Of a stretch of DNA of 64,000 nucleotides, positions 27,001 through 55,200 are shown in pieces. The translations under genes were made by a program, and so were the position numbers. The notes under the pieces were generated by a model. It saw only the letters and a list, made by a program, of their open reading frames with translations, was not told the origin of the DNA and did not search any database. Position 1 is the stretch's first letter, and each line of letters starts with the position of its first letter. The stretch covers positions 17,422,001-17,486,000 of the forward strand of contig CM022675.1 in the NCBI GenBank assembly GCA_012295275.1, written 5' to 3'. This DNA comes from Chrysomallon squamiferum (Eukaryota; Animalia; Mollusca).

Positions 27001-30000
27001 AAATACAATCGACTATTTCATTTAGCTTTCATACTTTGTATTAATTAGCTTTTGATTTTATTACATTAAAAACATTAAATCTCGAAAAAGCGATACACCA
27101 GCACTTAACAATCTACTTTTAAATGATGTTCGTTTCACAGGGACGCATATGCATGTGCAAATCTGCCCAGAGCAGTCACCCAAAAATTAGCTAAAAATGC
27201 TAAATTGTAAATAAAAATATATCAGAAATAAAGAGTGTTTTTTGCTTACCTGATTTTGTCAATTATCGAATCCAGCTGCACACAGATCATAAAAAAATAG
27301 CAATTACTAATTAGTCAAAGTTCAAATCAAGTTGCGTTTCCTGCGAATGTTGGACCATAAATAACATCCAGGTCACAATTATAGCCTCTATCCTTTGTTG
27401 GAAAAGGTAAACGGTCATTTTGTCACTTCCTGTGGAAATGTCCAGTCTTATATACCCCATTGACAAGTTTGTAAAGATTGTCGGCCACTTGGGGTGAGCT
27501 TTAAAATGTTCATTTCACATGAAACTTTGTTTACATCTGCTAGAAATATAGCTTGTCATTCTTATTAGGTTTTGCCGTTTTATTACGAATATGTTTGAAT
27601 GTAAATCATGGAAATAAAAGCTGTGTAGAAGTAAACAAAGAAAAAATGAGCCTGCTGGTACCTGTTCTTGGGTATGTTGGTGAGGTTAATATTGAAATAT
27701 TGATGTCATTGAAAGTTGGGTTCCTTTTGTTACATGAATGGATTGAGTTTCAGTTCCTGGTCATTCTATGTCAAACTGCCCCTAAAAAACACGTGAAGTG
27801 GCACTATACTGAGCCAAAAAGTGGGGACAAAGTCATTAAAAATAAAAAGTGCTTAAAATGATTAAAAAACTAGTTGAGATATTTGTTTTCAACTACACGC
27901 AATTAAATTGTTCTTGTCCACATTTCTGGCGAATTTTACCTCACACCGTCAACACAAAAAAAATAATTAAAAGAAACTAATTGCCAAACACTGTAATTTA
28001 ATCATATATATCATAATGTCAACATGCTATATACTTTGATCTTCAAAATCGCGTCTTTTTTTTAGGATTGTGAAGTTGAATGCACCCTTGCATTTTCCGT
28101 ATTTGGCAAAATAACGAGCCACTCCACATATATTTTAAACTCAACCACCTTAGATTTTTATGAGACTTGGTATACTTGTTGATTTAGATTCCACAGCATC
28201 ACATATTGAGATTTTCAGCTAAAAGGGGCACGCCAACCACTCTTTGTATCCTAATATCTCAGGAACTACTATGCCAGTCTTCGTGAAATTGGTATTGTTG
28301 GAAAGGCTGTTCAGATTGGAGAATGTTGGGTTGCAGTGACCTTTTGACCTTTGTTATGACCTGAAATTGACCTTGTGGATCACATGACATTGCTTTGACC
28401 TTTCTTGAAATTTAGTCTCTCCCACATTTTAACTAAAACATAATATTCTTTGTTTAGCAGCAATACACATTCAAAAATTGCATGTGCATGAAAATAAACT
28501 TAGGGTCAAACTTTTCAAGTATAGATCACAGATAATCAGTGTCAAGGTAGACCTTGTTCTCACTCTGTGCCAAAGACTGGGTGTACAAATACAATATGTA
28601 GTACATTACTGGTTTCAAACTGGGTTGTACTATAGTTGATTGAAATCTTGTTCAAAACCACTGGCAATTCCACATAAAAATATAAAATGACTTAATAGGT
28701 TTTATGAAGAAAGCTTCAGATTGTCAAAGAAATGCAGATCAAGAAACTTCTTTATTTTAAACATCTAATTGTCATCTGCTCAATGTAGATTTCACCAGGG
28801 GATTTCAAGGAGTCTCAGACATGCCTGAAGCCACACTTCCTGTTTATCTTTTGGGCCTGATTGTGTAGAACATCTCATGCCATTTGGCATCTTTTCATAT
28901 CCTTCAGACATATCAGTTGGTTTTGACTCCAAAGATGAGTTTTTGGTCTCAGAGAAGTCTATACATGTAGAAAATGTACATTGTAATGCATTGTATCCAT
29001 CATCCTTGCAGGTATGTACTTTTTAAATGTATATTGTGGCTAAACAAAAAAGATTACTCCTCTGAAACTTTTATGTTTTACTTAATGTGGGAGAGTAAAT
29101 TTCAAGAAAGGTCATCTCAGAGTTATGTGATCTACATGGTCAGTTTCAATGTCATAACAAAGGTCAAAAGGTCAACATACCCCAACATTCTCCAAAATGA
29201 ACAATAATTGCTTTTCCAACAAATCTCAAAATTTAGGGGTCTGAATCTCCTACAGTACTGTTCCAATTGGCCTTAAGTTTTTAATTTAGTGCTGTGGGAT
29301 CCCAATCAACAAGTATACCAAGTTCCATAAAAGTGTTAGATGGTAGGGTTTAACCCATTGGGTGATTCAACACAGAATGATCCATACATTGTTTGCTTTC
29401 CAAAATACAACTGCACTTACAGTTGATGCAAGGGATACAAACAAACAAGAAGAAATCCCCACCCTTGAAAAACAGCTTTATGGAGACTTGTTTTAAACTA
29501 GGTAGTCAATACAGAGATACCCAGTGAATGATGCAACATTCACACTAATATTTGTTTAAACAATTGTCATAATTTTCATAAAATTGTTTTTATATATTGT
29601 TTTCATAACCATTAATTTCATGTTATAAAAATATATTTTTTATGATAGTATTTAAATATATTAAAAATAAACACATACACATTGGTCTTATTAAAAAAAA
29701 TAATAATAATTTCTTTTTAAGTCTCATATTTTAGCAGCCAAGTCTGTGGCTTCTGTACTGAAAACATCACTGGGACCAAAAGGTCTTGACAAGATGATGC
29801 AGAGTCCAGATGGAGATATCACAATCACAAATGATGGAGCAACCATTCTTCAGCAGATGGATGTTGAACATCAGATAGCCAAGTTGATGGTTCAGCTTTC
29901 AAAGTCACAAGATGATGAAATAGGTGATGGCACGACAGGTGTCGTGGGTGAGTTTAAAAACTAATTTGGTGAATTCTGTGAAAGTATTGTTTATCTACTT

Positions 30001-33000
30001 GACATCAACTGAACTATACAAATAGATTAGCATTTCTTGTTGATAATTGGCAAAATTGTAAGTTTAATATGCAGTTTTATGTTCTTTAATTAGTGTTGTG
30101 TAATATTCTAAATTGATTTCTACAGGGTTTTTTTTCCCCCCCCCATTTGGTTTTTGGGGTATTTTGTCCATTAGGCACATGTATCCTTTTTACAGTATTT
30201 GTAATAATTTATTTTGAGGTTTGGAGTTACAGTTAATAGAAGGATTTAAAAATTAATTTAATGTTTTAGTATTGGCTGGAGCACTGTTGGAACAAGCTGA
30301 AAAACTGCTTGACCGAGGTATTCATCCAATCCGGATAGCTGATGGTTATGAACTTGCTGCTAAAGTAGCTGTGGAGCAGCTGGGCAAAATCAGTGAGAAG
30401 TTCGAAGTGGACTTGAAGAAACGTGAACCACTCATCAAGCTTGCGATGACATCTCTTGGTTCTAAAATGTAATTAACATCTTATTTGTGTTGCATAAGAT
30501 CCTAATTTTTAAGTTAATAATTTGCAATTTGCATATTTTATATGTATAAAAATTGTAATAAGTAACTACTATCTGCTTTTTTAGTTAGGATAATGACAAG
30601 TGATCAGCATTTGATACTTAATATAGCTATTTTCATAATTATAAATTTGTTTTTTAGAATAAATCGTTGTCATCGTCAAATGGCGGAGATTGCTGTTGAT
30701 GCTATTTTATCAGTAGCTGATTTTACTCGATCTGATGTTGACTTTGAGCTGATAAAGGTAGAAGGCAAGGTTGGTGGAAAACTGGAGGACACAATGTTGG
30801 TGAAAGGTGTAATAGTTGATAAAGACATGAGTCATCCTCAGATGCCAAAAGTAAGATGACATAATTTAAACAAGGTTCAAATATTAACCCTTTCAGACTT
30901 TTGTATCTAATGTTACATACAATAAATTTAATACATTCTGACTTAGATTTATGTATAGGGATTTTCTGTTCATAACTAAGTAATATATTAATGTATGCAC
31001 ATTGAACACTGTCAGCTTTTAGTGTTTGATTTGTTTTCATTGTTACATGATAATTTGCCTGTTTGTTTTGATATTTAAGTAGTAATATGATGGGGGATTT
31101 TTTTGAGTGAAGGGGATTGTAAATATTTGATATCTTCAAATCCAAGTCATTGGCATGAAGCCAATTAGTTTCATGGAGATGGCATTATGCATGTAAAACC
31201 AGATTATTGATAATTGGATAAATATATATATATTTGACATATTTAAAATTTTTGCCTCAGCTAAAAATGTTGTTGATCAAATTATAATATATAAAATAGC
31301 AGTCTTCCAGATTTCAGAAAATGCTTAATATAATTCACTGTCTTTTATTTTTTTACATTTTATCAAAAAAAGGCACTTCCATAGTTTGGTTTAATGCTAA
31401 AATCAAAAGTCTAAAAGGTTTAATCATTCATTGATTCATTCACGTCTTGTTCATTGTTTTCCTTGGAAATAACCAATTTCAGTTGATTTTTGATTAAAAA
31501 TACGGCCATTAAATGTTCATTGATCATTTCATTTCACTGTGATGCTCATATATTAAGTAACATAGCATATCCATTTATTCTAAATGCAGGAAATACTTGG
31601 GCTTTTTTCGGAAATAGTATGGTTCCAGTGTCATTATACAGTCGCATAATTCATACCTTATTTGATGTCACTGTGGATGTTTGGGTTATGACAGTGACAG
31701 CATGTCATGTTATTGCCAATTTAGTAATTGTGTGGATCAGACATCATGCTAGATAAATCTCACTCTGAACCATTGTCAGGTCTACACAATAGATCTGTCG
31801 CACTGATGGGAGTGGAACACATCTATAAAATCATCCTACCAGCTGCATTTCAATTGCCAGCAACTGATGGCAGTACATTTGCTCCCAAATTAGATGTTAT
31901 AAACTGCATTTGTCATCCAATAACCATAAAAAGAAAAATACATGTATTAAGCTGTCATAGAATTATAATATGAGGTTTGATGTTACCCCACAGAAACTGC
32001 AAGAACATGCAAAACTACTATCAATTCAAGTTTATTTCTGCTACAAGTAGATAAAGTATTGAGATACCTTTATTTTCAGGTGGTAAAGGATGCAAAGATG
32101 GCTATTCTGACATGTCCATTTGAACCGCCAAAGCCAAAGACAAAACACAAGCTTGATGTGAAGTCTGTTGAAGACTATAGAAAGTTAAGAGAATATGAAA
32201 TGCAGCAGTTTGAGAGTATGGTGAACATGGTAAACATTTTCTTTTTAATTAGCACATTTGGACACAAATAGCTCAGTTTCATTTGATGAATCTCTGTTAG
32301 CATGAATAATTTTGTTCATTTACTGAATCTGAAAAACATTTAAATTGTAAATTGGTCATTTTTATGTAAAAAGAAAATTTCATAACAAAATATATTTTGA
32401 TTTAAGCTGTTCAGAATAACAGTTCCCTAACACTATTACATGGAATTTCCACTTTTCCAAATTGTAAAACAAAATGCCAATTTGTTTCATCAAATTAAAG
32501 AGTTACTTATTAACAAATAAGTATATCCTTCTGCTTAACTGATCCTTTCAGCCATTAAAGCACAGCAGACAAAGTTACTCCACAAAATGTAAATAAGTTT
32601 CTGAACAGGTTTGGATGCTATTTTCTTTCTGTCATTCAGTTTATTTCAGGTTTGTTTTATTGGCTAATTGTTAGGTTATGTTCAGTTACCTAGATGCAGG
32701 AGCACCTGTTTGTTCTTCATATAGATTTGAAGACATGATACCAGAAAAAAAAAAGTTCAGGAATTTCCAATTTTATCAAATTCATATTGTGTAGCATGTG
32801 TTAATCATTCATTGATGCAAAGTTTATTGAAAATTTACTCATGTTTTAATACATACATATTCCAGCATATTGACAGAAAGCTCGGAGAAACATTTATATA
32901 ATATTTTATTATAATTTTTTTAAATATTCAGCCCTTTCAGTTAATTATTTGCTAGGAAAGGATACAGAAGTTAAAAAATTAGGTGTCTCTGATTGGCTAA

Positions 33001-33270: not shown

Positions 33271-36200
33271 CTTTCTGGTGTTATTTCTTTGTTTTACAAA
33301 GATGATATGCTGAAGATTGTACATGTGTAATTTGAGTATTTTTATATCAAGAATTATGCATTAGAGGCATTCCGTGTCAAATCACCCAGTGTGTTAAATC
33401 TGACCATCTCAGATTTTTATGAAACTTGGTATACTTGTTGATTGGGATCCCACAGCACCAGTCAGACCAGTGGTTTGGAAATTTAATCTTCCACCTGTTA
33501 ACTAAAACATATAAAAGTTTCCTGGGTGTTATTTTTTATTTAGCCACAATATAGATTTAAAAAATGCACATCCATGAAAATAGCAACTTTTCTGCCATTA
33601 ACATCTGATTAACTAAAACCTGAATGATCAATTCTGGATGCTAGGAATCACCATCTCTCTTGATCACTGATTAAGACACTGTAGGCCTACATGAATGCAT
33701 AAAGTTCACATAAATTCAAGAGAACTACGTGTTTCTGATGCATAACCTTCTCACCATCTTTGTTTCAAATGCTCACTGTATCCTTCATTCCCAACCACAT
33801 TCTACTGTTCTCGTCACTTTCAGAAAATTGGACTATTTCTTCCTTCAATTCATTTGACAGAACTTTCCCTTATTTCTGATCAGAGGGATAGAATTCTTTT
33901 CTCTTTCTTCACAGCACAGCTTTTTTTCACACGGTAATTCATTGTTTCAAATTCATTCATTGTCCTTTCAATGGTAAAGGGTGACAAAGTCAAGATTTAC
34001 ACATGCTCTGGGTAGGATTTAGACTTGATGATTTTGTCTTTCAACTCCTCCAACATGTTCCTGAATAAATGAAGGTGTGATTTTTTGATGAGTCCAGGTT
34101 ACTTTCAAGAGAATGAAGTGGAATATCATGGACTGTTTCAAGATGTCGTTTTAATGATACTGTAGCTGATGCTAGTTTTTTCAGTCGTTTCATTCGTTTA
34201 CTGGAACATGCTAGTGAATGGAGTTTAACAGGAGTTTCACCTAAACTCAACAGGGTAGAATTCAAATCAAAGTCCTTTTCTGGGGAAACAACAACAGGCG
34301 GTTTGTCTGGCAAGTTATCATCAAATTCTCCCATAGTAATACCACCCATACTAAAGCCATCCTCTACAGGGGTTTGGACCTTTGATTTCTGAAGGCTAAT
34401 CAGACAGTCACAGCACAACTTGTCTCCTGGCACTAATGTCTTTGGATTTACTAAGCATTTGTTAGTGCCCATGCTAACAATTCTTAAAGATCTACTGTGT
34501 GCTTGCTTAGGATGGCAATTAAGGGGATCACAACACTTTTTCTGCAATGTTGAAATCTTGATTAAAAGTTCTTGTTAGTGATGTGAACAGATACTCTTGA
34601 TATCCTGTGTTTTGATACCACTTCAAAGAGTGAGAAGTTAGACTGTTTATTCTTCATATAAATTTGCAACAACTCCTTTTTGGTATGATGGTGTTGATAA
34701 CACATTTTCAAGAGAGTATTTGCCATGTGCTTAATGGGGATTTCACCAGTCCCCAACATGCCTGAAGCATCACTTCCTGTTAACCCTTTGAAGCTGATTG
34801 TGTAGAACATGTTGTGCCATTTGGCATCTTTTCATATCCTTCAGGCATTCCTTCAGACATGTCAGGTGGGTTTTAAGGATGAGTTTTTGGTCTCAGACAA
34901 GTATACATGTAGAAAATGTACATTGTAAAGCACTGCATCAGTCATCCATGCAGGTATGCAATTTTTAAATCTATATTATGGCTAAACAAAAAATATTACA
35001 CCCAGGAAACTTTCATATGTTTTAGTTAACATGTGGGAGATTAAATATCAATAACGGTCACTTCAAGGTCACGTGATCCACAGTGTCAATTTCAAGGTCA
35101 TAACATAGGTCAAAAGGTCAGTGACCCCAAAAGTGACTCCAAACTGAACAATAATGGCAGATGTGGAATCCTTGTCATATTGCCTTTTCAACAATACCAA
35201 TTTTATGAAGATTGGACCAGTAGTTCCTGAGATATGAGAGTTCAAAGGTTGGTGTCATGCCCATTTTTCCAAAAATCTCAAAATTCGTGTGGCCATATCT
35301 CTCACACCACTGGTCCAATTGGCCTAAAATTTCAGATTTGGTGCTGTGGGATACCAAATTTCATAAAAATCTGAGACAGTTGGGTTTAAAATTGTTATTT
35401 TGGGTTGGTGATTTGATATGGCATGACCCATTATCAAAAATTACTGTCATTCACAGGTAAGATTCTTTAGGGTCATCCCATGTCAAATCACCCCACCTCC
35501 AAAAAAAAAAATTTAATCCCAACCATCTCAGATTTTTTATGATGTATATGTTGATTGGGATCCCATAGCACCAAATCCAAAATTTTAGCCAATCAGACCA
35601 GTGATGTGGGAGAAATGGCCCCCCAAATTCTGTGATTTCTGGCCAAAATGGGTGTGACCACCAACCTTGGAACCCTCATATCTCGGGAACTACAGGGCTA
35701 ATCGTCATAAAATTGGATTATTGAAAAGGCACTATGACAAGGTTTCCAAATCTGCCATTATTGTTCATTATTGGGGTATGCTGACCTTTTTACCTTTGTT
35801 ATGACCTTGAAATTGACCTAGTGGATCATGTATAAAAGTTTCAGAGGTGTAATCTTTTTTGTTTAGCCACAATTGTTGAAACTGCAATATATGACAAGGA
35901 TTCCAAATTTAATCTTCCACATTAACTAAAACATGTAAGTTTCAGAGGTGTAATATTCTTTGGTTAGCAGAAAAACACATTCAACAATTGCATGTCATTG
36001 AAAATATCACCTTTTCCGCCATTAACATCTGATTAGCTGAAACCTGAATGACCCATTCCTGATGCTAAGAATCACTAACTCATGATAACCAGGCCTACAT
36101 GCTATGATTTTATGATATCAAAATACTTCTCACCAGTTCAGCAGTCACAGAATCATTCAGTCACTGACTTCTTATCAGTGTTTTGATACCCGTAGAAGTA

Positions 36201-36598: not shown

Positions 36599-39500
36599 CT
36601 GGAGGGAGTTATAATGGTAATATAATTGCCATGTGCCCAATGGGGATTTCACCAGGGGATTTCAAGGAGTTCCTGGCATGCCTGAAGCAACACATCCTGT
36701 TAACCCTTTGGGCCTGATTGTTTAGAACATGTCATGCCATTCAGCATCTTTTCATATCCTTCACACTATGGTTTCAGTTTTGGTTTTATTTGAAAAATTC
36801 AACCTGTGTTATGAACAATTTATCAAGATCATTCAATTGACATACTTAAATCTAACATTTTTAATAAAAAATCTGGGTGGGTTTTTTTTTTTTTGGGGGG
36901 GGTTGGGTTTTTTTTCTGCCAAGCCCATAACAAAAAAACTTATTCAATTTATATGGATCAGCACAACTTTATTTACATAAGCAGAAAGAATTTTCACTCT
37001 ATTAAATAATTAGCTGTAACAAGTTAAGATACTGTGATGTGTAAATATCATGTATGTGTATATATATAATGTTACTTAAAAGGACTACAAGCATTTGATG
37101 TTTAACCATAATCCTCTGCAATACGTAAACTCATACAAAAAGGTGTTGCTGGTATTAATTAGGGGCAATATTATTTATGTAATCACGAGACCATAGTGAA
37201 TTAAAGATACATGTCTGTCATTTGAAATACACAAAATAATTTTCTTAGCTTTATACTTGCTGTGATTTGACAGTAAACAAAAGTTACATATAATATGACC
37301 ATTGTTGATAGAGGTTATCAACAAGCAAAAATAATCTGTTTTAAAACTTGATCAATTTATGATTTTATATGTAAAAATGAATTTTTTTTATTGACCATTG
37401 TCAATACTTGTGAATACATTGTTCTATTATGTAGCATAGGTTGTTAGGGTTACTATTCTTAATTCGCCATTTATCACAAGGATTTAAATCAAAATAATCA
37501 ACTGTTTTAGATTGGAAGATAGTAATAGGCAAAACAATGTTAATTCATTTATTTAAGAACATACTCATATTATATTCAGTAAAAGTCATGACATATAATA
37601 AAACATGCATCCTACAAGTTATTAAAAAGATAATCAACATTGAAATATTATCATTTTAAATAGCACCAGTTCTTTTGAGTTGCACTTAAAATCTACAGTG
37701 ATTTGGCTATGAACATGCTGTAATGTATATGCTAAAAGTAGGAACAGTGAAGAAAAACAAACAGCCAACGAGTTATTAAAAATATAAACATCTAAATATA
37801 ATCATTTTAAACATCACCAGACCTTTCTAGTTGTATATAAAATCTACAGCAATTTCTGTTTGTAGAAAACATATCTTAATAGCAATTTCACTAAGCACGT
37901 GCTACTTTCAAATGCAGAGCTTCATTTTGCCAATGAAGGCACACCGAAGTGTCACACATTGTTTGAAAGGTATGAGCTTTCATTTGATCCTGTTAATTAT
38001 TTTCAGCCAATTTTCTTCTAAATTGGTTTGAAGGCATGAAAAAGTACATTTTTGTACACAACTTTTGATATATGCCATTGCCAGTGACAACCAACATGCA
38101 CACGGTTAGAAAGATTGAACTTAGACCCTTCTAGCTGTGCTAAAAATAACATTGACGCCATTTTGGCAAAAACAACCCAGGCGTTTGTAGAGTGACCCAC
38201 ATTTTAGGACTTTTTATTCCATGCTGTTAATTGCTGACCATGGGCGTCGAAGTGCATTTAACCCCAACACGTTTAACACTCTTACAAAGAACTGATTTAA
38301 GATATAACAAGAACACCACCACATAATGACTTTTATTTCCATATATTTGTTTTTTATTGTAGGTTTTATAGAAGGGATTTGATAGTGGAGGAAAATGGAC
38401 AAAACCTGAACTTTTAACAGCTTCGATCAATTATATGAGCTATGCTGCCAGTACCTTCTCGGCATAAATACAGTGTGGCCACTAATCTCAACTTTAAGAC
38501 TCTCCTTAATGATTGATTTTAGACTGTATGAAAGTATTACAGATGGATATAAATGTCTACCCATGATGTCATGAAGCCATATTTAATGTCGCTGGCCTTT
38601 AAGAGCAGGTTCAGAAAATCTGTCTTGGTCAATAATGTGTAACCTCAGCAGTGGCATACTTTAGTTTGGACTTTGTTACTAGGAAAATGTGCATCCCCAA
38701 CTGCATTTAGTGTCTGCTTAAAATCTTTCACTGAGGAGGCCAATGAATGTTTCATTTTTGGAGTTACATTTCAGTGGCATGTTGGATGTGTAATACTAGG
38801 TAACTAACATAATTGGACACAACTATTAAAAGTGCAAATTTTGTCCATTTTCCTCTACTCTAAAATCTCTTCTGTAAAAACTAGTATGAAAAATAAATAT
38901 ATGGAAATAAAAGAGTATTATGTGCTCTTTTAAATGGTGATGTTTTTGATGTGTGTTATGTCAGTAATTTGTTAGTGTTAAACATGGTGAGGGGTAAACA
39001 AACTGCCACCCATGGTCAGTCATTGACAGTGTGGAGTAAAGACCTAAAAAGATGTTGCTCTACAAAAACCTAGTTTAACTTTAGTGTTATTTTTAGCACA
39101 TCAGGAAGGTCAAAGTTTGATCTTTCTAACAGTATGCATGTTGTCACTGGCAATGGTTTATATCAAAATTTGTCTAAAAAACGTATTTTTGCTTGCCTTC
39201 AAACCAATTTTTGAAAACAAACAGTAAAATTGATAATCCATTGAAAGCTGTGGCACTGTCGTTTGCCATCTTTGGCATTGAACAGCTGTGCATTTGAAAG
39301 TAGCACCTGTTTAGCAAAACTGCCATAAATTACATTTTCTGTTGGCCAGATCACCATAGATGTACACTAGAAAGGACTGGCACTGTCAAAAATGATTATA
39401 TTTATGAATTGTTTATATTTTTAATAACTATTTTTAGTGTGTGTGTGTATGTATGTATCTATCTATCCACACACACACACACACACACATGTGCAGCAAA

Positions 39501-42019: not shown

Positions 42020-45000
42020 TGAAAATGAAGTGACTTGAAAGTTTGCCATAGGTTAAATGTCAGGTTATGTTTAACAGGTGAAAGCACTTATTTTGCCCAT
42101 GTCAGCCCCTGCCACACTCCTTGTGTGTTCAAGACAATAGCAAGATAATTTTTCAGATATAATTGCAAGTTGTGAGTTCATGTAATTTATTCAGCTTAAA
42201 TGTTTTGTTTTCATTTGAACAGATAATTGAGGAGGCAAAGAGAAGTCTACATGATGCTTTGTGTGTTATACGGAACATCATTCGAGACTGTCATGTGGTA
42301 TATGGTGGGGGTGCACCAGAAATTTCATGTTCTTTAGCCGTAGCAGCTGCAGCCGATAAGGTGAGTTGTGATTTTAAAAATATTTAGTTTAGATATTAGG
42401 TGTATTAACTGCACCAATTAAACTGGTATTCATGTGATGAAATATAAAAAGACTAATATGTGTATGTAAAAAGACCAATTTTTACTAATGTTAACTAATT
42501 TTATTTTTCCTAATAAAGGAAATAAACACAGTCCTGATAATAAAAATCCATCAAATACACGTTCTGTTTCTGAAACTGAAATGTGACAAAAGTGTGATAT
42601 TGTATTAAAAATTGAAAATGAGATATTTAAATAATCCTATAGAGTTTGTTAATAGATTCACAAAACTACAAAATCTTTGTTGATACCTTAAGAACAGACA
42701 GAGCTTTGGCATTCTTAGTGTTACCAAAGTAACAGAATGATTAAACTAAGAAAAATAACCCTGAAGGCTTCCCTTAAATTCTATCTCCAAGTCCACACAA
42801 CCATGCATTTTTGGGGCACCTTAATCAGGCTTGAAATTGAAACCATTTGGATCACTGCATCCTGTTTTGTGAAATTCAGAATTTTACGTTTACTTTGATT
42901 TCCTCCTGTTGATGTTTGCTTTCTGACATGTTTCTTAAATGTTTTCTAGTTCTGGTGCTGATAAAAGTAAATGAATCCAATGTGTCAGTGTTGGTTAGAA
43001 TTTGTATATGAATTGCAAATTGAATAGTTGTGTGTATTTTATAACAGTTTCCAGTTAAATGTTTTGTAACTTAAATATCCATGAAATCACTACATATGCA
43101 TTCTTTTTGTTTATAACCAAGATAAAGCTAGAGATGTTGTAATGATTTGTAAAAACAATGATTTTGTCAGATGTTTAAGCATGTGGAATTTCTGCCAGTT
43201 TTGTAATTGTGTGGATCAGACAACATGCCAGATAAATCTCACTCTGAACCATTGTCAGGTCTACACAACAGATCTGTCACACTGATGTGAGTGAAACATG
43301 GATAGAATCATTATCTGAAAGCAAAATTCAGGGTCATTCAAAAGCCCTGCTACACTTTTAAGTTTTAATTAAATGAAAACAGCTTTATGGTTTCGAACAA
43401 AATTAGTCGTGAACTTTCTATAGACAGCTACAATTGTCCCATATCGAAAAAGTCCCTCTTCTGTTTTCTTAGGCTCCGTAAATTTCAACGTGAGCACCTT
43501 CTTTTTTGAGACACATTGCCCACCTTTTCAAGCATTCCTCTCCAACTCCAGTCAGCAGCTCCCTTGCAACAAGATTGCAGGCATTCCTTAGATGTTCCTG
43601 TAACTCTTCAAGACTCCTAGGCTTTGATGCATAGACTTCACTTTTCAGGAAGCCCCAGAGAAAGAAGTCACAGGGTGTCAAGTCTGGAGAATGTGGCACC
43701 CACTCCAGAGTTCCTCGATGACATACCCATCCGTTAGGGAACTTGTGATTCAAGAAATTGTAAACTGCTTTAGCATAATGTGGAGGAACACCATCTTGTT
43801 GGAGAAAACAATCACATTATGCTAAAACAGTTCGCAATTTTTTGAATCACAAGTTCCCTAATAGATAGCAGGTCGTCAACAAATCCCAATTGTAAACTTG
43901 TCATATAGGCAAAGCAGTTGCGTTACTTCTAATAGGTGAGCCACTCCACTAAAAGTGTGCTATTGTATTAAAAATTGAAAATGAGTTATTTAAATAACCC
44001 TATAGAGTTTATTAAAAGATTCACAAAACTACAAAATCTTTGTTGATACCTTAAGAATTGACAGAGTATGACATTCTTAGTGTTACCAAAGTAACAGAAT
44101 GATTAAACTAAGAAAAATAACCCTGAAGGCTTCCCTTAAATTCTATCTCCAAGTCCACACAACCATGCATTTTTGGGGCACCTTAATCAGGCTTGAAATT
44201 GAAACCATTTGGATCACTGCATCCTGTTTTGTGAAATTCAGAATTTTACGTTTACTTTGATTTCCTCCTGTTGATGTTTGCATTCTGCATGGACTGTTTC
44301 TGACATGTTTCTTAAATGTTTTCTAGTTCTGGTGCTGATAAAAATAAATGAATCCAATGTGTCAGTGTTGGTTAGAATTTGTATGTGAATTGCAAATTGA
44401 ATAGTTGTGTGTATTTTATAACAATTTCCAGTTAAATGTTTTGTAATTAAAAGATCCATGAAGTCACTATATAATGCTTTCTTTTTGTTTATAACCAAGA
44501 TAAAGCTAGAGATGTTGTAATGATTTGTAAAAACAATGATTTTGTCAGATGTTTAAGCATGTGGAATTTCTGCCAGTTTTGTAATTGTGTGGATCAGACA
44601 ACATGCCAGATAAATCTCACTCTGAACCATTGTCATGTCTACACAATAGATCTGTCACACTGATGTGAGTGAAACATGTATAGAATTATTTTTTGAAAGT
44701 TTAATATATTTGTCATCTTGCATATAAATCTGCACATTATATGCTGTTTTAAATGATAGTGGATATCTCAGTTGTTTTTTGTGCATATTCTATCAAATAT
44801 TTAGAAAATGAGATTAATTTTTAAATCTTTTCTTTTTTTCCTTTCTATCTTTCCAGTAATGAGTTCGGTATAGTGAATCTGCTGTTTACATAAAGGTTTC
44901 CTGTTTATACTGTAGATTATATTCATTGGACTATACAAGTTGTCAGCAATTCCGAGTTGTTGTTTTTATGTCATACTGGCAAAACAATTGTATTACTACT

Positions 45001-46724
45001 AATAAGTGAGCCACTCCAGCAAAAGTGTGCAGTTGCATTAAAAATAGAAAAAGAGATATTCACAAAACTACAAAATTTTTGTTGATACCTTAAGCTTTGA
45101 TGTTTTTAGTGTTGCCAAACGTGGAATTTCTCAATTATTGAATGATGTCCATGAGACTAATGACATCTGAAGCAAAATCAAGAATTTTCTTAGCATTATA
45201 CTTGTAATTTGAATACAAAGATATTTTCTGTGATGGAGCTAATCACCCAAATATACAACCAGGTTTTAAAAATTAATATGATATTTAAAAAATGTAATTG
45301 GTTTATTCTTCCATTCATAATACAAGCAGTACCACTGTTACTTGGCACTCACAGACTATATTGTACTGTGTTTTGTACTGGTTTTTGTGTTTATGATTCA
45401 AAAACCAAGTTTAATTTGCTGTTTATTGTGAGAATTTTGCAAACAAAATATTCACATGAGTCTTAGATTAGAAAAGATGGTAATCACCAAAACTCAAATG
45501 CACTGACTCACGTTCTGTCTGGCCAGTAAGCATACTTCTCAGCATGGACATAGCAACTGAACTGGATTGTTTATATGTAAATCATTGTGTTTCCTCCTCG
45601 TAACTGACCAAAACTATTACTATATCTTTTTAATAAAAAGTAAGATACCACACACAAAAAAGTTGACATCAGTCATTCTTTTGGTATGTGACTAATGGTA
45701 TCTGTCTGTCTAGCTGAGTAGAAACAAAATAAGAAAATTGGCAATTTTCCACAAGTTTGAGTTTAATTAGGCAAGTGTCATGAAAGTATGCATCAAAATA
45801 ATTATTTAGGATTCAAAAGAGGCTAGACACTTAAGAGAGAACAGAGGTTTGGTAAAGAAGAAATGAGACAATATATCATAAAATGTACTTCCAAGTAATA
45901 TTTATTTATAAAAATGGAAAAAGAAAAAAGACTTAATATTGCTCTGGATTAAAAGTGGCGGACTAATAGAAGGTGATTATTTGTATGAACAGTGATCATT
46001 TTATCTATCTTTCTTCATTTTTTCCTTCTAAAGATATCTACTCTGGAGCAATATGCAGTGCGAGCTTTCTCTGAGGCCTTGGAAAGTATTCCATTAGCTC
46101 TGGCAGAAAACAGTGGCTTTGCTCCGATACACACACTGGCAGACGTGAAATCTCGCCAGGTGAAAGAGAAAAATCCTCACTTGGGAATTGATTGTCTCCT
46201 GAAGGGAACAAATGGTATATTAGAAATTTTATTCTATAAATCTCATTTTATGTTTAGTTCAAACGTTAAACTTACAAATCTATATTCCTTTGCACATTGT
46301 TGGAAAGAAGTAGTAATAAAATATTAAGTTGCAATTAAAATTGTTTAAAAACAACAGATTTCAGTAAATATTGAATATTATTCACTAGAGTTGGTAAAGT
46401 TTAACTATTTCAATTAAGCAATAAATAAATTTATTTTGGATACTTGTAACTAGAAGTATAGCTATTGTTAAATTGTACCCAAAACTTGTAACACCCATAA
46501 AATAGAAGCTAATCACTTTTAACCAATGCCATTATTAAAATGTTTGATAAAATTTTCACTCATGATTCTACCAACTATTAATGGATGAATGTTATTTTCC
46601 AGATATGAAGGAACAAAATGTTATAGAGACCCTTACAGCAAAGACTCAGCAGTTGTTACTAGCAACACAGCTTGTTAGGATGATTTTAAAAATAGATGAT
46701 ATTCGAGCTCCTAATGACATGTAA
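18062..46724 (+). CDS. CCT5: T-complex protein 1 subunit epsilon (chaperonin CCT5), 539 aa
   Basis: Exons 18062-18166, 29722-29947, 30270-30468, 30658-30850, 32080-32229, 40468-40587, 41027-41212, 42223-42360, 46034-46214 and 46603-46724. All introns are GT-AG, phases are consistent, total 1620 nt. Motifs: [87 protein letters not shown] at 46933-46964. Confidence 0.98.
18401..21826. mobile_element. Composite non-autonomous DNA-transposon region bounded by about 365-bp inverted repeats
   Basis: 18401-18768 is an imperfect reverse complement of 21461-21826, with TA on both outer flanks. The inner unit 18741-21487 is flanked by TTAA with GGTACCAGCA ends. Internal tandem duplication of about 190 bp at 19710-20070. 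No recognisable transposase. Confidence 0.7.
22240..23700. repeat. Old degenerate inverted repeat pair (possible MITE remnant)
   Basis: About 22340-22412 is an inverted match to about 23568-23640 (CTGTGGCAGA...AGAGGA(C/T)ACTTGGGC); both ORF translations contain EDTWAN. Confidence 0.4.
23704..25872 (-). mobile_element. Non-autonomous DNA element with GGTACCAGCAG termini (family recurring in CCT5 introns)
   Basis: GGTACCAGCAG at 23704 and CTGCTGGTACC ending at 25872, with flanks TGTA/TGTT. The body is an inverted match to 36795-38457 and 20370-21487. Internal duplication of 24933-25125 at 25628-25812. Confidence 0.6.
25860..27895 (+). repeat. Near-identical direct duplication of about 250 bp (25860-26115 and 27650-27895)
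   Basis: GCCTGCTGGTACCTGTTCTTGGG...CTAGTTGAGATATT occurs twice with few differences. Confidence 0.85.
28135..29383. mobile_element. Internally deleted Sola2-like element
   Basis: Arms are homologous to the 33364-35429 element. The right end is GGGTGATTCAACACAGAATGATCC; the left end is eroded. Confidence 0.65.
31698..31822 (+). ncRNA. Box H/ACA snoRNA, SNORA42/SNORA80-like (copy 1, CCT5 intron 4)
   Basis: Hairpin AGCATG...CATGCT, H box AGATAA (31751-31756), second hairpin, ACA at 31817-31819. Pocket strands GAACCAT and CTGAT are complementary to conserved 18S rRNA AUCAG-UU-AUGGUUC, and CTGAT starts 14 nt before the ACA box. Confidence 0.8.
32857..33214. mobile_element. MITE-like element of about 360 bp
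   Basis: Imperfect terminal inverted repeats ATATTCCAGCATAT / ATATACTGCTGGATAT. Confidence 0.4.
33364..35429 (-). mobile_element. Sola2-like DNA transposon with a decayed transposase
   Basis: Ends GAGGCATTCCGTGTCAAATCACC and GGTGATTTGATATGGCATGACCC; 4-bp TSD ATTA (33360-33363 and 35430-35433). Minus-strand remnant CCDPLNCH...LR...PGDKLCCDC (34041-34547), then [28 protein letters not shown]...[14 protein letters not shown] with stops and frameshifts. Confidence 0.75.
35470..36763. mobile_element. Truncated second Sola2-like copy, interrupted by low-complexity (TAG/GAT)n sequence
   Basis: Starts GGGTCATCCCATGTCAAATCACCC; left-arm homology extends to about 36100 and a right-arm piece lies at 36640-36763. 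Confidence 0.65.
36795..39925. mobile_element. Two inverted copies of the GGTACCAGCAG-ended repeat family (36795-38457 +, 38805-39925 -)
   Basis: Diverged reverse-complement similarity between the two, and to 23704-25607 and 20370-21487. Confidence 0.65.
43177..43301 (+). ncRNA. Box H/ACA snoRNA, SNORA42/SNORA80-like (copy 2, CCT5 intron 8)
   Basis: GCATGT...ACATGC stem, H box AGATAA (43230-43235), CTCAC...GTGAG stem, CAGGTCT/AGATCTG upper stem, ACA at 43296-43298, and the same 18S guide pocket as copy 1. Confidence 0.8.
43329..43870 (-). mobile_element. Tc1/mariner DD41D (rosa/VS-type) transposase 3' fragment with one TIR
   Basis: FLQQD-x41-D counted directly ([53 protein letters not shown]). 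TIR-like CAGGGTCATTCAAAAG at 43329. An inverted partial copy lies at 43813-43870. Confidence 0.85.
44555..44679 (+). ncRNA. Box H/ACA snoRNA, SNORA42/SNORA80-like (copy 3, CCT5 intron 8)
   Basis: Nearly identical to copy 2. H box, ACA (44674-44676) and guide are intact; one G>T change in the 3' upper stem. Confidence 0.72.
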
Positions 46725-52207: not shown

Positions 52208-55200
52208 TAGATGTATATTTTATTATTATTATTATTATTATTACTATTATTATTTATTGGGGGATGGGTGATGATGGGACTGAATACACTAACGAACATT
52301 AAAACAAAACAAAACAAAATGTTGTAAAAATTGTACTAAATGGCCTTGCAAAATCCTTGCAATGGATCTAATGATTTCTCATTAAGCATTTGTGCTGGAT
52401 GCATTATAATGTCAGATCCTCATCTGTATGTTAGTACTTGCATGACGTAAAAGTATATGATTCCTGCTGCTTTTACTCAATCTCCCACATAATTTGAAAG
52501 TGCTGTTAAAGGTTTTAAAAAATTCATTGCCAAAATACAATGAGCTATTTATCAAACAGCTGCAAGGTATGTAACTTAAGTACCTTCACATAGACAGGAA
52601 AATACCTCCTTTTTCCTTTGGTAATGTTGTCAGTCTACAAAATAATTCAGTGTAAGCATTAACTTTCAAGATTATTTTTTGGAGTAGTTACAAAAACTAC
52701 TTTTCAAGTTGTGAAATTGTATTAGGAAAACCTGGTTGTTTAGGTGCAAAGAAGACAAAATGTCAACCAAAAAAATCCCAACTATTGTAAATGTTAAGAA
52801 AAATTTGAGCAGTTTATTTTATATATGCAGTATTAATTTTAATCTTATTGTTGTTTCCTTTGAATTTAGATGGTAGAATATATAGTTAAAATTAAATATA
52901 TTTAACATACAAATATTGGAGCTATACAAAATACTTTTTGTATATGTAAAATTTTTAAATTTTGAAATGATCAATACCTGTATATGAATATTGATTCTAC
53001 AGTTCACATCTAATTCTTGCTAGAATCAAATGGGTTTTGTCCACATTTGTAGTAAATGTTGTGGTTTTAACCTGGATCTGATTGTTCATTTGCATTCAAT
53101 TTTTTTATTATTTATTTATTTATTTATTTATGTGATTTTAGTAAAAGTTTATATTAAAATCAGAAACATATTGCTTTGCAGAATGTTGTTAGAAGTCCAA
53201 TAACATTACTTCCATTTAGCTTTGTTATCAGAATAGCAAATTTACAAAATAGTTTGTGCTCATAATCATAACTCATATCAGAGTTTTTTAATTATTACAT
53301 CAGTCAACATCAGTAGAAATTTCTGACAAAAAAATTGGCATTATTAATAAATTATTAAGTTAACATTATTTACTTATTTATTCATTTATTTTTACTTTAC
53401 AAACTTTTTTACCGTCTAAAAACTTCACAATAAATATGATATCTCTGTTTCAAATATTTTTCTAAATGGTTGAAAAAACTGATTTCAGATAATAAATTTT
53501 GGTTTATGTGACCTAAATTTGGAAATAGAAACTACATAAAGCACAAATATATTCAGAGTTTTGCATCATTTCATATATCTATATATATATTTTTAAATTT
53601 TCTATGTAATTAAAAAAATAATAATAATAAATATATAATAATCCAACAAATAAATAAACAAAAGTAAGAACATTTGAAAAACCTGTTAATTACTAAACAG
53701 CTGAGACAAATGTGGAACAAATGATATGCTTCTGGATCTTTTCTAATTCCAAATAGTGCCCATTACAGCTGGTTTATCAAAGGCTGTAGCAAAAGCGTTT
53801 TGTATTATTTAGTGTGTGATGACAGTGATTTCCTCTTTCCATACTGATACAGTTATTAATATGGCATAATATAATCAAAAATGTAAAATATATTCAGATG
53901 ATCATTACAGAAAATGTTTCTTTCTTCCTTCCACATTATGTTTATAAACAAAAGTTAAATAAATACAAAACTGAGATATTCATCCTTAACTATTCCTACA
54001 ACAAACGTGAGCGAGATCGAAATGCCAAGCTAATTATTGACATGAATGGTCCTACAACCATCATCCAGAATCCAGAAGATAAAAATGATGAAAAAAAATT
54101 CGCTTTTGACTACAGCTACTGGTCACACGATGGATCTAAAGAGATGCCTGATGGTTACTATGGCCAAGATCCATCACACCCAAATGGCAAAAAGTTTGCT
54201 GATCAGGTAATAAACACTAATATTATTATAATAAAAACTTGAAAAAAAAAAAAAAAATGATTTAAAAATGTTAAAGTGAGTATAACATATCAGAGAAATA
54301 ATGAATATTAAAACAATTGAAATTTTTACACTCTGACATAATAAGATTATTACTTGTTTGATCAATCAGATTTTACAAATGTAGTATTTATCTGAAAAAA
54401 CCTTTTTACAGAATGAAAATAAAAACAGATAATTTAGAAATATATAATGTGCTTATCTTTAAATGTATAGAAATGTAAACAGTTATTTCCTAAAATTTGT
54501 TTTTAATTCTTCTAACAGTCTTCAAACTTTATTTTCTTTTGTTTGGATATATAGAAAAAGGTATTCAATGATTTGGGCATGGGTATTCTGACCAATGCTT
54601 GGGAAGGTTACAACTCCACTCTATTTGCCTATGGACAGACTGGGTCAGGCAAGAGCTGGTCTGTGGTTGGATATGGAATCAACAAAGGTAAATAATATTA
54701 TAACTGTCCAAAATGCTTTAAAAGCTGATATATATATATATTTAGTTCGTATTGTAGATTTTATTCCTTTTCGTAAATGATAAATAAACTGCAAAAAAGC
54801 TGATCCAAATGATTTCAGTTAAAGGATAGTAGATGTGAACTGCTAGGAGATCTTATGTTTTATGGAAATAAACCAGTTAATAATTATATATGAACCAATC
54901 TATTTTTATTAATTTTAGTGAATTGCACTTTTGTTATTGGTATGGAGTAAATTTCTATTTCCGTATTATTAGTTGTCACTAACTAATAAAACTGAAAAAG
55001 GCAACAGCAGTATGACAGAGAAACAGAAAGGCAGATTTTAATTAAGAATAAGGGGACATTAAAATAGTTTCCATTAGTTTTCTGTTTATATAATTAAGAA
55101 TTATATTTGTTTGTATTTTCGTTATCAGGCATTGTTCCACAGTTTTGTGAAAAGATTTACCAAGGAATAGATGAAAAAGTGGCAGCAGGTGATAAAACAG

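What the first reader, a model, noticed from the sequence alone, without database searches (positions are those of the whole stretch)
43177..44679. Candidate snoRNA-capped lncRNA carrying antisense and fold-back transposon sequence in CCT5 intron 8
Seen: two intact-looking H/ACA snoRNA copies lie in the same intron and orientation, about 1.4 kb apart. Between them is a DD41D transposase 3' fragment antisense to CCT5 transcription, plus an inverted partial copy of it. Established: animal intronic snoRNAs are trimmed exonucleolytically from the debranched lariat, usually one per intron, and two in one intron can leave a stable snoRNA-ended lncRNA (PWS sno-lncRNAs; the H/ACA-ended SLERT). Inference: this housekeeping gene could continually make a stabilised RNA of about 1.5 kb containing antisense and double-stranded transposon sequence. 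That could be a nucleolar lncRNA or a source of small RNAs against the DD41D family. I know of no such arrangement in invertebrates, but it may simply be a neutral duplication.
Basis: partly seen in the sequence, partly recalled or inferred. Interest (0 to 1): 0.8.

Follow-up and report, generated by a model that had tools for sequence, protein, structure and literature searches.

The report
Duplicated guide RNA in chaperonin intron
One intron of a housekeeping chaperonin gene carries two tandem copies of a small RNA predicted to guide ribosomal RNA modification, with a transposon scrap between them; they are likely cut apart into two ordinary small RNAs, and such same-intron clusters are common in fruit flies, but a stable 1.5-kb RNA capped by both copies is not excluded.

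Summary
The anatomy is real. CCT5 intron 8 (42361-46033) holds a 734/749-nt tandem duplication (94.5% alike). Each unit ends in an H/ACA snoRNA with intact boxes and two pockets that pair with conserved 18S rRNA sites. Between the units lie the right end of a DD41D transposon, antisense to CCT5, and a 54-bp inverted piece that forms a strong hairpin. DNA runs of two studies hold both copies and both junctions, so an assembly artefact is unlikely.

Both point to birth-and-death of a snoRNA family. Tandem H/ACA copies in one intron are not new for invertebrates: 62 of 80 Drosophila H/ACA rows read in a published table are intronic clusters.

The two RNA runs exist only as contigs. They cover the spacer, but also intron outside it and intron-4 flanks, so they cannot show ends or level. 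Best reading: an ordinary intronic snoRNA cluster with a passenger transposon, likely matured through a short-lived snoRNA-ended intermediate (0.55). A stable sno-lncRNA is about 0.3; one that acts against the transposon about 0.07. The scan's index showed no earlier finding of this on other DNA.

The parts
42223..42360 (+). CCT5 exon 8
   Evidence: Pfam Cpn60_TCP1 E 3.4e-12; spliced to exons 7 and 9 in RNA contigs of X8 and X9; frame check
42361..46033 (+). CCT5 intron 8, GT-AG, 3673 nt
42588..43321 (+). Tandem unit 1
   Evidence: 94.5% to unit 2; 24 substitutions in 733 columns plus a 15-nt indel and small indels
43177..43301 (+). H/ACA snoRNA copy 1; H box 43230, ACA 43296; two pockets predicted to guide 18S pseudouridylation
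43329..43816 (-). 3' end of a DD41D (Visitor) Tc1/mariner element: terminal end at 43329, transposase C-terminal frame 43472-43816, truncated at its 5' side
43729..43866 (.). Hairpin: arms 43729-43782 and 43813-43866, 30-nt loop; the right arm is a sense-oriented piece of the same transposase (weak similarity runs on to about 43876)
43865..44699 (+). Tandem unit 2 (43951-44699 shared with unit 1; 43865-44090 shared with unit 3)
44555..44679 (+). H/ACA snoRNA copy 2; H box 44608, ACA 44674; pockets identical to copy 1; one change breaks an upper-stem pair
44933..45165 (+). Decayed third unit: start of the unit at about 81% identity, a deletion of about 450 nt, then a probable remnant of the snoRNA 5' hairpin (45120-45165)
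   Evidence: remnant score 35 against a maximum of 33 in 4924 background tiles; it runs into an unrelated repeat family from about 45160
31698..31822 (+). Third paralog of the snoRNA, alone in CCT5 intron 4, 257 nt from the acceptor; keeps boxes and 3' pocket, has lost the left strand of the 5' pocket
   Evidence: 89% over 121 nt

Best explanation
This is a tandem duplication inside CCT5 intron 8 that left two intact-looking H/ACA snoRNA genes predicted to guide 18S rRNA pseudouridylation, and they are likely released as two ordinary snoRNAs of about 125 nt, with the transposon scrap between them a likely neutral passenger. Shown: the duplication, the boxes, the pocket-rRNA pairing, the transposon end, the hairpin sequence, direct exon 8-9 splicing, and the presence of both copies in two DNA runs. 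Inferred from known animal snoRNA processing: the lariat is debranched and exonucleases trim in to the 5' end of copy 1 and the 3' end of copy 2, which would give a 1.5-kb snoRNA-ended intermediate. Inferred further: a cut in the unprotected spacer of about 1250 nt, possibly by an RNase III enzyme at the 54-bp hairpin, would open entry points, and trimming would then free both snoRNAs. The family turns over by birth and death within the gene: one paralog has lost a pocket and a third unit has decayed.
For: Pockets: the 5' pocket pairs 8+6 (up to 9+6) bases around a U in 5 of 5 Rfam-confirmed eukaryotic 18S sequences. The 3' pocket pairs 7+7 at position 109/110 in 2 of 5, the two whose sequence there has the matching type. 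Distances to the boxes are 15 and 14 nt; 1 of 300 and 0 of 300 shuffled pockets did as well. The whole 733-nt unit was copied, not the snoRNA alone, and the snoRNA is no better kept than its flanks: 3 of 123 against 21 of 610 substitutions, Fisher p 0.78, low power. A third unit has decayed and lost most of its snoRNA; the intron-4 paralog lost the 5' pocket. Paralogous H/ACA copies in one intron of housekeeping genes are common in Drosophila: 62 of 80 H/ACA rows in supplement part 8 of PMC11028025, such as Psi18S-640a-g in Arpc2 and Psi28S-3327a,b in RpS4. Pairing alone often gives no detectable sno-lncRNA (PMC4234469). Fold-back repeats are not special to intron 8: intron 5 has a palindrome of about 760 nt at 78% and arms of about 650 nt at 70%. 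RNase III cutting between co-transcribed snoRNAs is established in yeast (PMC10557570, passages) and proposed for DROSHA at human SNHG25 (PMC12508059, passages).
Against: In human constructs H/ACA ends suffice to protect a spacer, and no enzyme that separates intronic cluster members is shown for this animal. That Drosophila cluster members accumulate as single snoRNAs is recalled; the table read gives only their annotation as separate genes. RNA contigs cover much of the unique spacer: X8 558 of 629 nt (78 of them in a piece with 5 differences that may come from another family copy), X9 249 of 629 nt. They cover less of the unique upstream intron: 126 and 0 of 227 nt. That would fit a stable spacer, though contigs cannot show level. 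Only intron 8 has both pockets intact, and two substitution-free tracts of 258 and 158 nt between the units (p 0.0006 for the longest) suggest gene conversion, which weakens the no-selection test. Pocket pairing does not prove guiding: one Xenopus SNORA15 copy has a predicted 18S target that is unmodified (PMC8522698, passage). The 5' pocket test is partly circular because the 18S loci were fetched with that pocket's complement; the 3' pocket test is not.
Confidence: 0.55

Rival explanations
1. A stable snoRNA-ended RNA of about 1.5 kb accumulates as a by-product because nothing cuts the spacer efficiently. It would carry the H/ACA proteins at both ends and has no selected role of its own.
For: Both snoRNAs look intact and lie in one intron that is spliced out whole in both RNA runs. 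H/ACA ends suffice in human constructs (PMC4234469). The spacer is present in RNA contigs of 2 of 2 RNA runs. My scan found no polypyrimidine-AG acceptor between the copies that would split the intron.
Against: Intron upstream of copy 1 and the flanks of the single intron-4 snoRNA are in the same RNA runs, so unprocessed intron or DNA can explain the cover. Most known pairs gave no detectable sno-lncRNA. A 54-bp hairpin is a plausible cleavage site (inference).
Confidence: 0.24
2. The pair is in transit to a single copy. One copy, likely copy 2 with its broken stem pair or copy 1 lying 2.7 kb from the acceptor, assembles poorly, so only one snoRNA matures and no double-ended RNA forms.
For: Copy 2 3' hairpin -12.4 against -16.5 kcal/mol in copy 1. 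Distances to the acceptor are 2732 and 1354 nt against 257 nt for the intron-4 paralog. A third unit has already decayed. Duplication and loss of snoRNA paralogs balance in Caenorhabditis, 16 and 16 cases (PMC3342880, passages).
Against: Both copies keep both boxes and both pockets without change and differ at only 3 positions.
Confidence: 0.13
3. The snoRNA-ended RNA, or the hairpin cut out of it, is functional: a housekeeping gene continually supplies antisense and double-stranded DD41D sequence that feeds small-RNA silencing of the family or acts in the nucleolus.
For: The hairpin is strong (z -14.6). About 490 nt are antisense to a multicopy family with many copies at 90% or more in both DNA runs, and other copies appear in RNA contigs. 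The arrangement is present in DNA runs of two studies.
Against: Only about 54 bp are double-stranded, enough for two or three small RNAs at most. The arms have drifted at 6 of 54 positions, and the minus strand folds better than the transcribed strand (-90.9 against -82.0 kcal/mol). Larger fold-backs lie in intron 5 with no snoRNA ends. No small-RNA data were available and no conservation could be tested.
Confidence: 0.06
4. The duplication is an assembly or haplotype artefact.
For: Two long identical tracts between the units. No laid contig spans the whole stretch, and one of the DNA runs may be the source of the assembly.
Against: Both junctions are bridged without differences in X1 and X4, which belong to two studies (43271-43375/43378 and 43758-44046). 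Copy-specific pieces of both units (43017-43130, 44394-44508) are present in both runs. Junction pieces have about the depth of the single-copy flank (13.4 against 11.8; 128 against 144) and shared pieces about double (19.6; 338), though the tool warns that depth is no copy number.
Confidence: 0.02

Closest known systems
Drosophila intronic H/ACA snoRNA clusters (PMC3089462 passages; PMC11028025 supplement)
   Same: Tandem paralogous H/ACA guides in one intron of a protein-coding housekeeping gene of an invertebrate.
   Different: Here two intact copies lie 1378 nt apart, the duplicated unit is 0.73-0.83 kb, and a transposon end with a hairpin sits between them. Spacer lengths of the fly clusters were not looked up.
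sno-lncRNAs: PWS-region sno-lncRNAs, SLERT, LNC-SNO49AB (PMC4234469 passages; PMC11028025 passages)
   Same: Two same-strand snoRNAs in one spliced intron; H/ACA at both ends as in SLERT.
   Different: These are defined by a detected stable RNA, which is not shown here. SLERT arises by exon skipping between two different snoRNAs; here the pair arose by tandem duplication in an intron that is spliced whole. Known cases are mammalian.
Vertebrate SNORA42/SNORA80 (RF00406) and SNORA15 (RF00398)
   Same: The 3' hairpin resembles SNORA42/80 (E 5.5e-6) and the 5' hairpin resembles SNORA15 (E 0.82). The predicted 18S sites agree with the targets I recall for them (human 109 and 1367; recalled, from no call). 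Drosophila has a guide named Psi18S-110.
   Different: Both scores lie below the gathering thresholds (39.6 of 70; 21.9 of 47). The two pockets sit on one RNA here but match two separate vertebrate families. Homology to Psi18S-110 was not tested. CCT5 did not appear as a host in the first 300 of 389 pages of the published table.
DD41D / Visitor family of Tc1/mariner transposons (name from a search listing)
   Same: 41-residue spacing between the second and third Asp; 33-55% identity to 26 longer relatives, several with PF13358 or PF16087; other copies end at the same base, some behind TA.
   Different: Only the last 115 codons and one terminal end remain; the first Asp and the left end are gone, and TT stands where TA is expected.

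Membership tests
Box H/ACA guide snoRNA | ANANNA hinge box and ACA three bases from the 3' end | tested here: met
   AGATAA at 43230/44608; ACA at 43296/44674; definition in PMC11028025 section 3
Box H/ACA guide snoRNA | Two hairpins, each with an internal pocket | tested here: inconclusive
   Each half folds as a pocketed hairpin on its own, but the free fold prefers another structure by 2.9 and 3.8 kcal/mol; z -1.19 and -0.76
Box H/ACA guide snoRNA | Bipartite pairing to an rRNA or snRNA uridine 14-16 nt from the box | tested here: met
   8+6 and 7+7 pairs, 15 and 14 nt; 1 of 300 and 0 of 300 shuffles; tested on 18S of other eukaryotes, not this species
Box H/ACA guide snoRNA | Accumulates as a small RNA bound to dyskerin and modifies its target | not testable with these tools
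   Only contigs of two RNA runs are held
Rfam SNORA42/SNORA80 (RF00406) | Score at or above the gathering threshold of 70 bits | tested here: not met
   39.6 and 35.8 bits
Intronic snoRNA cluster | Two or more snoRNAs in the same intron of a host transcript, same strand | tested here: met
   Intron 8 spliced whole in X8 and X9; definition in PMC11028025 supplement methods
sno-lncRNA | Two snoRNAs in one intron | tested here: met
sno-lncRNA | At least 80% of the spacer covered in non-polyA RNA-seq, at 40% or more of the snoRNA level (criteria of PMC4234469) | tested here: inconclusive
   Unique spacer covered 558 of 629 nt in X8 and 249 of 629 nt in X9; level, strand and library selection unknown; intron outside the span also covered in X8
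sno-lncRNA | Discrete stable RNA whose ends coincide with the two snoRNA ends | not testable with these tools
   No raw reads held; contigs cannot show ends
DD41D / Visitor transposon | 41 residues between the second and third catalytic Asp | tested here: met
   41 in the fragment and in 22 of 26 relatives
DD41D / Visitor transposon | Two terminal inverted repeats, TA target duplication, full transposase | tested here: not met
   One end only, TT in place of TA, 115 codons: a relic, not an intact element

The most novel reading that the evidence does not exclude
A captured transposon fold-back has become the switch of a snoRNA pair. The lariat of a housekeeping gene is trimmed to a stable H/ACA-capped 1.5-kb RNA, the first invertebrate sno-lncRNA as far as my searches reach. 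An RNase III cut at the 54-bp hairpin both releases two rRNA guides and yields small RNAs against the DD41D family, tying ribosome modification to transposon control.
Probability: 0.07. Interest if true: 0.75.

Novelty: new member of a known kind. Interest (0 to 1): 0.3.

Why it matters
As it stands it is a clear example of a snoRNA family turning over inside one host gene: two intact tandem copies, one paralog that lost a pocket, one decayed unit. It also offers a simple natural test of an open point, namely what decides whether two snoRNAs in one animal intron are cut apart or stay joined. One Northern blot with three probes would answer that for this locus. If a stable capped RNA were found, it would extend sno-lncRNAs beyond mammals. 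Three literature searches showed no such report, but the library lacks most subscription papers and I did not read the one 2013 review that one search listed.

Tried and rejected
No whole genome is held for this window, so copy number and other snoRNA pairs in the genome could not be counted.

A metagenome scan with a motif shared by the three paralogs gave 8 matches; all 8 look like chance (alignment scores 20-35 against 182 for the true paralog, no CCT hit). Conservation in sister species is therefore untested.

Reads could be laid on 42100-44800 only, with 4 of the 9 holding runs (X8, X9, X1, X4).

Gaps in RNA cover are not used as evidence. RNA contigs stop at the hairpin base (X8 at 43729, resuming at 43879; X9 resuming at 43869) where DNA contigs cross it, and one X8 contig begins at 43172, 5 nt before the predicted 5' end. 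Both RNA runs are of one study. Neither RNA run covers 44700-44800, but the DNA runs have no depth at 44739-44800 either.

The X8 joint 42709-44072 is not taken as a haplotype without the duplication: 210 letters fit both sides, as expected from a collapsed repeat. The opposite-strand joints at 43677/43696 are taken as other family copies; the X8 one has the same depth (7.01) as a contig carrying a family allele at 43658. No A>G signal on the hairpin was listed for the RNA runs, but they barely cover it.

The idea that the unit start is a decayed copy of exon 8 was rejected: 233 and 166 of 500 shuffles scored as well. With the full snoRNA as query, two unrelated tiles (45 and 39) outscored the unit-3 remnant (36), so the remnant rests on its position and on the 5'-half test. 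The first pocket scan had mis-set pocket edges and was redone; a first exon join had two bounds off by one and was corrected.

Passages of PMC1821038 (a one-per-intron cluster), PMC6984369 and PMC10227372 gave nothing on this family. One paper asked for by id was not held.

Full report
Setting. The window holds a ten-exon gene at 18062-46724 whose exons join into an open 539-aa frame with GT-AG at all nine introns. Exon 2 matches chaperonin subunit epsilon best among solved structures, and three exons match Pfam Cpn60_TCP1, so CCT5 and the intron number are right. Intron 8 is 42361-46033. Contigs of both RNA runs join exon 7 to 8 and 8 to 9 directly. Unchecked notes of other agents on this genome call the animal a snail, perhaps from a vent; I did not test this.

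The duplication. 42588-43321 and 43951-44699 are 94.5% alike over 750 columns, with 24 substitutions in 733 columns and a 15-nt indel. The snoRNA is the last sixth of each unit, so a stretch of intron was copied, not the snoRNA alone. Substitutions are no rarer in the snoRNA (3 of 123) than outside (21 of 610; p 0.78, low power). They are clumped, leaving substitution-free tracts of 258 and 158 nt (p 0.0006), which suggests gene conversion between the units (inference). A third, older unit follows at 44933: its start aligns with 43865-44090, 81% over the best 100 nt. After a deletion of about 450 nt comes a probable remnant of the snoRNA 5' hairpin; it scored 35 against a maximum of 33 in 4924 background tiles, begins with an 11-nt exact match right at the break, and then runs into another repeat family. 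A further paralog lies alone in intron 4 (31698-31822, 89% over 121 nt).

Is it real DNA? Nine public runs from three studies hold the region. I laid two DNA and two RNA runs on 42100-44800. Both DNA runs, from two studies, bridge the unit 1-transposon junction and the hairpin-unit 2 junction without differences, and hold copy-specific pieces of both units. Junction pieces have about the depth of the single-copy flank and shared pieces about double. One run may be the source of the assembly and no contig spans the whole stretch, but an artefact is unlikely.

The snoRNAs. No Rfam family reaches its gathering score in the window. At E-value level both copies match SNORA42/SNORA80 (5.5e-6, 5.2e-5) through the 3' hairpin and SNORA15 weakly (0.82, 1.1) through the 5' hairpin. 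Both have AGATAA as hinge and ACA three bases from the end. To test the pockets I fetched 49 loci with an 18S-type motif and confirmed 5 of the 5 that I submitted as eukaryotic SSU rRNA. The 5' pocket pairs 8+6 bases around a U in 5 of 5, 15 nt from the H box. The 3' pocket pairs 7+7 at position 109/110 in 2 of 5, 14 nt from ACA; the other three differ at that site. Shuffled pockets did as well in 1 of 300 and 0 of 300 trials. The first test is partly circular, since the loci were fetched with that pocket's complement; the second is not. The human numbers 1367 and 109 for these sites are recalled. The intron-4 paralog keeps the 3' pocket but has lost the left strand of the 5' pocket. Against: free folding prefers another structure by 2.9 and 3.8 kcal/mol; copy 2 has a broken upper-stem pair; and pairing is not proof of guiding (PMC8522698, passage on Xenopus SNORA15).

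The spacer. A 115-codon frame at 43472-43816 on the minus strand is the C-terminal part of a transposase with 41 residues between the second and third Asp; 22 of 26 longer relatives agree. Pfam alone gave only DDE_3 at E 0.037. Other family copies end at 43329 in both DNA runs, and the family has many copies at 90% identity or more. At the truncation point a sense-oriented piece of the same transposase (43813-43866) pairs with 43729-43782: 51 of 54 positions paired as RNA, z -14.6. The arms differ at 6 of 54 positions against 24 of 733 between the units (p 0.013). The hairpin is therefore older than the last homogenisation of the units or was built from a second family member. Intron 5 of the same gene has far longer fold-backs, so double-stranded repeat sequence in this pre-mRNA is not special to intron 8.

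RNA evidence. Both RNA runs are held as contigs only, from one study, with unknown selection. They cover 558 (X8) and 249 (X9) of 629 nt of the unique spacer, and 126 and 0 of 227 nt of the unique upstream intron; 78 of the X8 nucleotides lie in a piece with 5 differences that may come from another copy. Both runs also hold flanks of the single intron-4 snoRNA. So intron sequence is in these libraries inside and outside the proposed span. The data fit unprocessed intron or DNA as well as a stable spacer and cannot show ends, strand or level.

How it likely works. Shown: the anatomy above. Inferred from established processing (PMC10557570 passages; PMC11028025 passages and section 3 part 1): splicing, debranching and exonucleolytic trimming up to the outer snoRNP ends, which would give a 1503-nt intermediate (43177-44679). 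What happens next decides the case. In human constructs H/ACA ends suffice to keep such an RNA, yet only 7 sno-lncRNAs were seen in H9 cells for 48 paired snoRNAs, and none in rhesus or mouse from annotated introns (PMC4234469 passages). In Drosophila H/ACA genes are generally clustered in introns, unlike the silkworm (PMC3089462 passages). In part 8 of the 118 parts of the PMC11028025 supplement, 62 of 80 H/ACA rows are intronic clusters, 16 mono-intronic and 2 intergenic (counted by me; fly rows in other parts were not counted). That these mature to single snoRNAs is recalled. RNase III separates co-transcribed snoRNAs in yeast, and DROSHA is proposed for a stem-loop in human SNHG25 (PMC12508059 passages). 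I therefore favour a short-lived intermediate that is cut in the spacer, possibly at the hairpin, releasing two guides (0.55). A stable but unselected sno-lncRNA (0.24), a pair with one copy failing (0.13), a functional anti-transposon or nucleolar RNA (0.06) and an artefact (0.02) follow.

Novelty. As an intronic H/ACA cluster it is a new member of a known kind. As a sno-lncRNA it meets the genomic prerequisite only. Searches for snoRNA, mollusc, intron, host gene and ACA box together gave 0 papers; sno-lncRNA with invertebrate and transposon gave 1 review, not read; sno-lncRNA with Drosophila and cluster or TGIRT gave 3 papers, two of them seen as listings only. The original Drosophila cluster papers were not seen. 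The scan's own index had no finding by words, sequence or place. Interest 0.3: ordinary as it stands, cheap to settle, and worth 0.75 if a capped RNA or hairpin-derived small RNAs appear.

Noticed in passing
window 31698-31822 (+), CCT5 intron 4: A third paralog of the snoRNA, 257 nt from the acceptor. It keeps the 3' pocket but has lost the left strand of the 5' pocket, so only the intron-8 copies could still guide that site.
   Followed up: yes
window 42709-42967 vs 44071-44344 and 43100-43258 vs 44478-44636: Two long substitution-free tracts between the tandem units (p 0.0006 for the longest), suggesting gene conversion; one covers the 5' half of the snoRNA.
   Followed up: partly
window 35071-35831 and 37771-39429, CCT5 intron 5: Large palindromic repeat elements (about 760 nt at 78%; arms of about 650 nt at 70%), with related pieces at 20000-25800, 28100-29400 and 45160-45450.
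   Followed up: no
window 18398-18768 and 21461-21829, CCT5 intron 1: A 371-nt inverted repeat at 93.5% enclosing about 2.7 kb; it may mark the ends of a young element.
   Followed up: no
window 25851-26095 and 27641-27883, CCT5 intron 1: A 245-nt direct repeat at 96.7%, 1790 nt apart.
   Followed up: no
window 34041-34574 (-), CCT5 intron 5: A 177-codon open frame with no convincing Pfam match (best E 0.049); perhaps a piece of a mobile element.
   Followed up: partly
run X9, record 29, on window 43523-43563: A 1543-nt RNA contig from another locus, at high depth, carries a piece of this DD41D family; several other RNA contigs do too.
   Followed up: no
window 53829-54242 (+): A frame whose end resembles a kinesin motor-domain exon (resemblance recalled, not tested).
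   Followed up: no
L027, L031, L033, L051, L054: Near full-length eukaryotic 18S rRNA genes inside contigs filed with bacterial genomes, likely contamination; about 310 stored stretches were estimated to hold the motif.
   Followed up: partly
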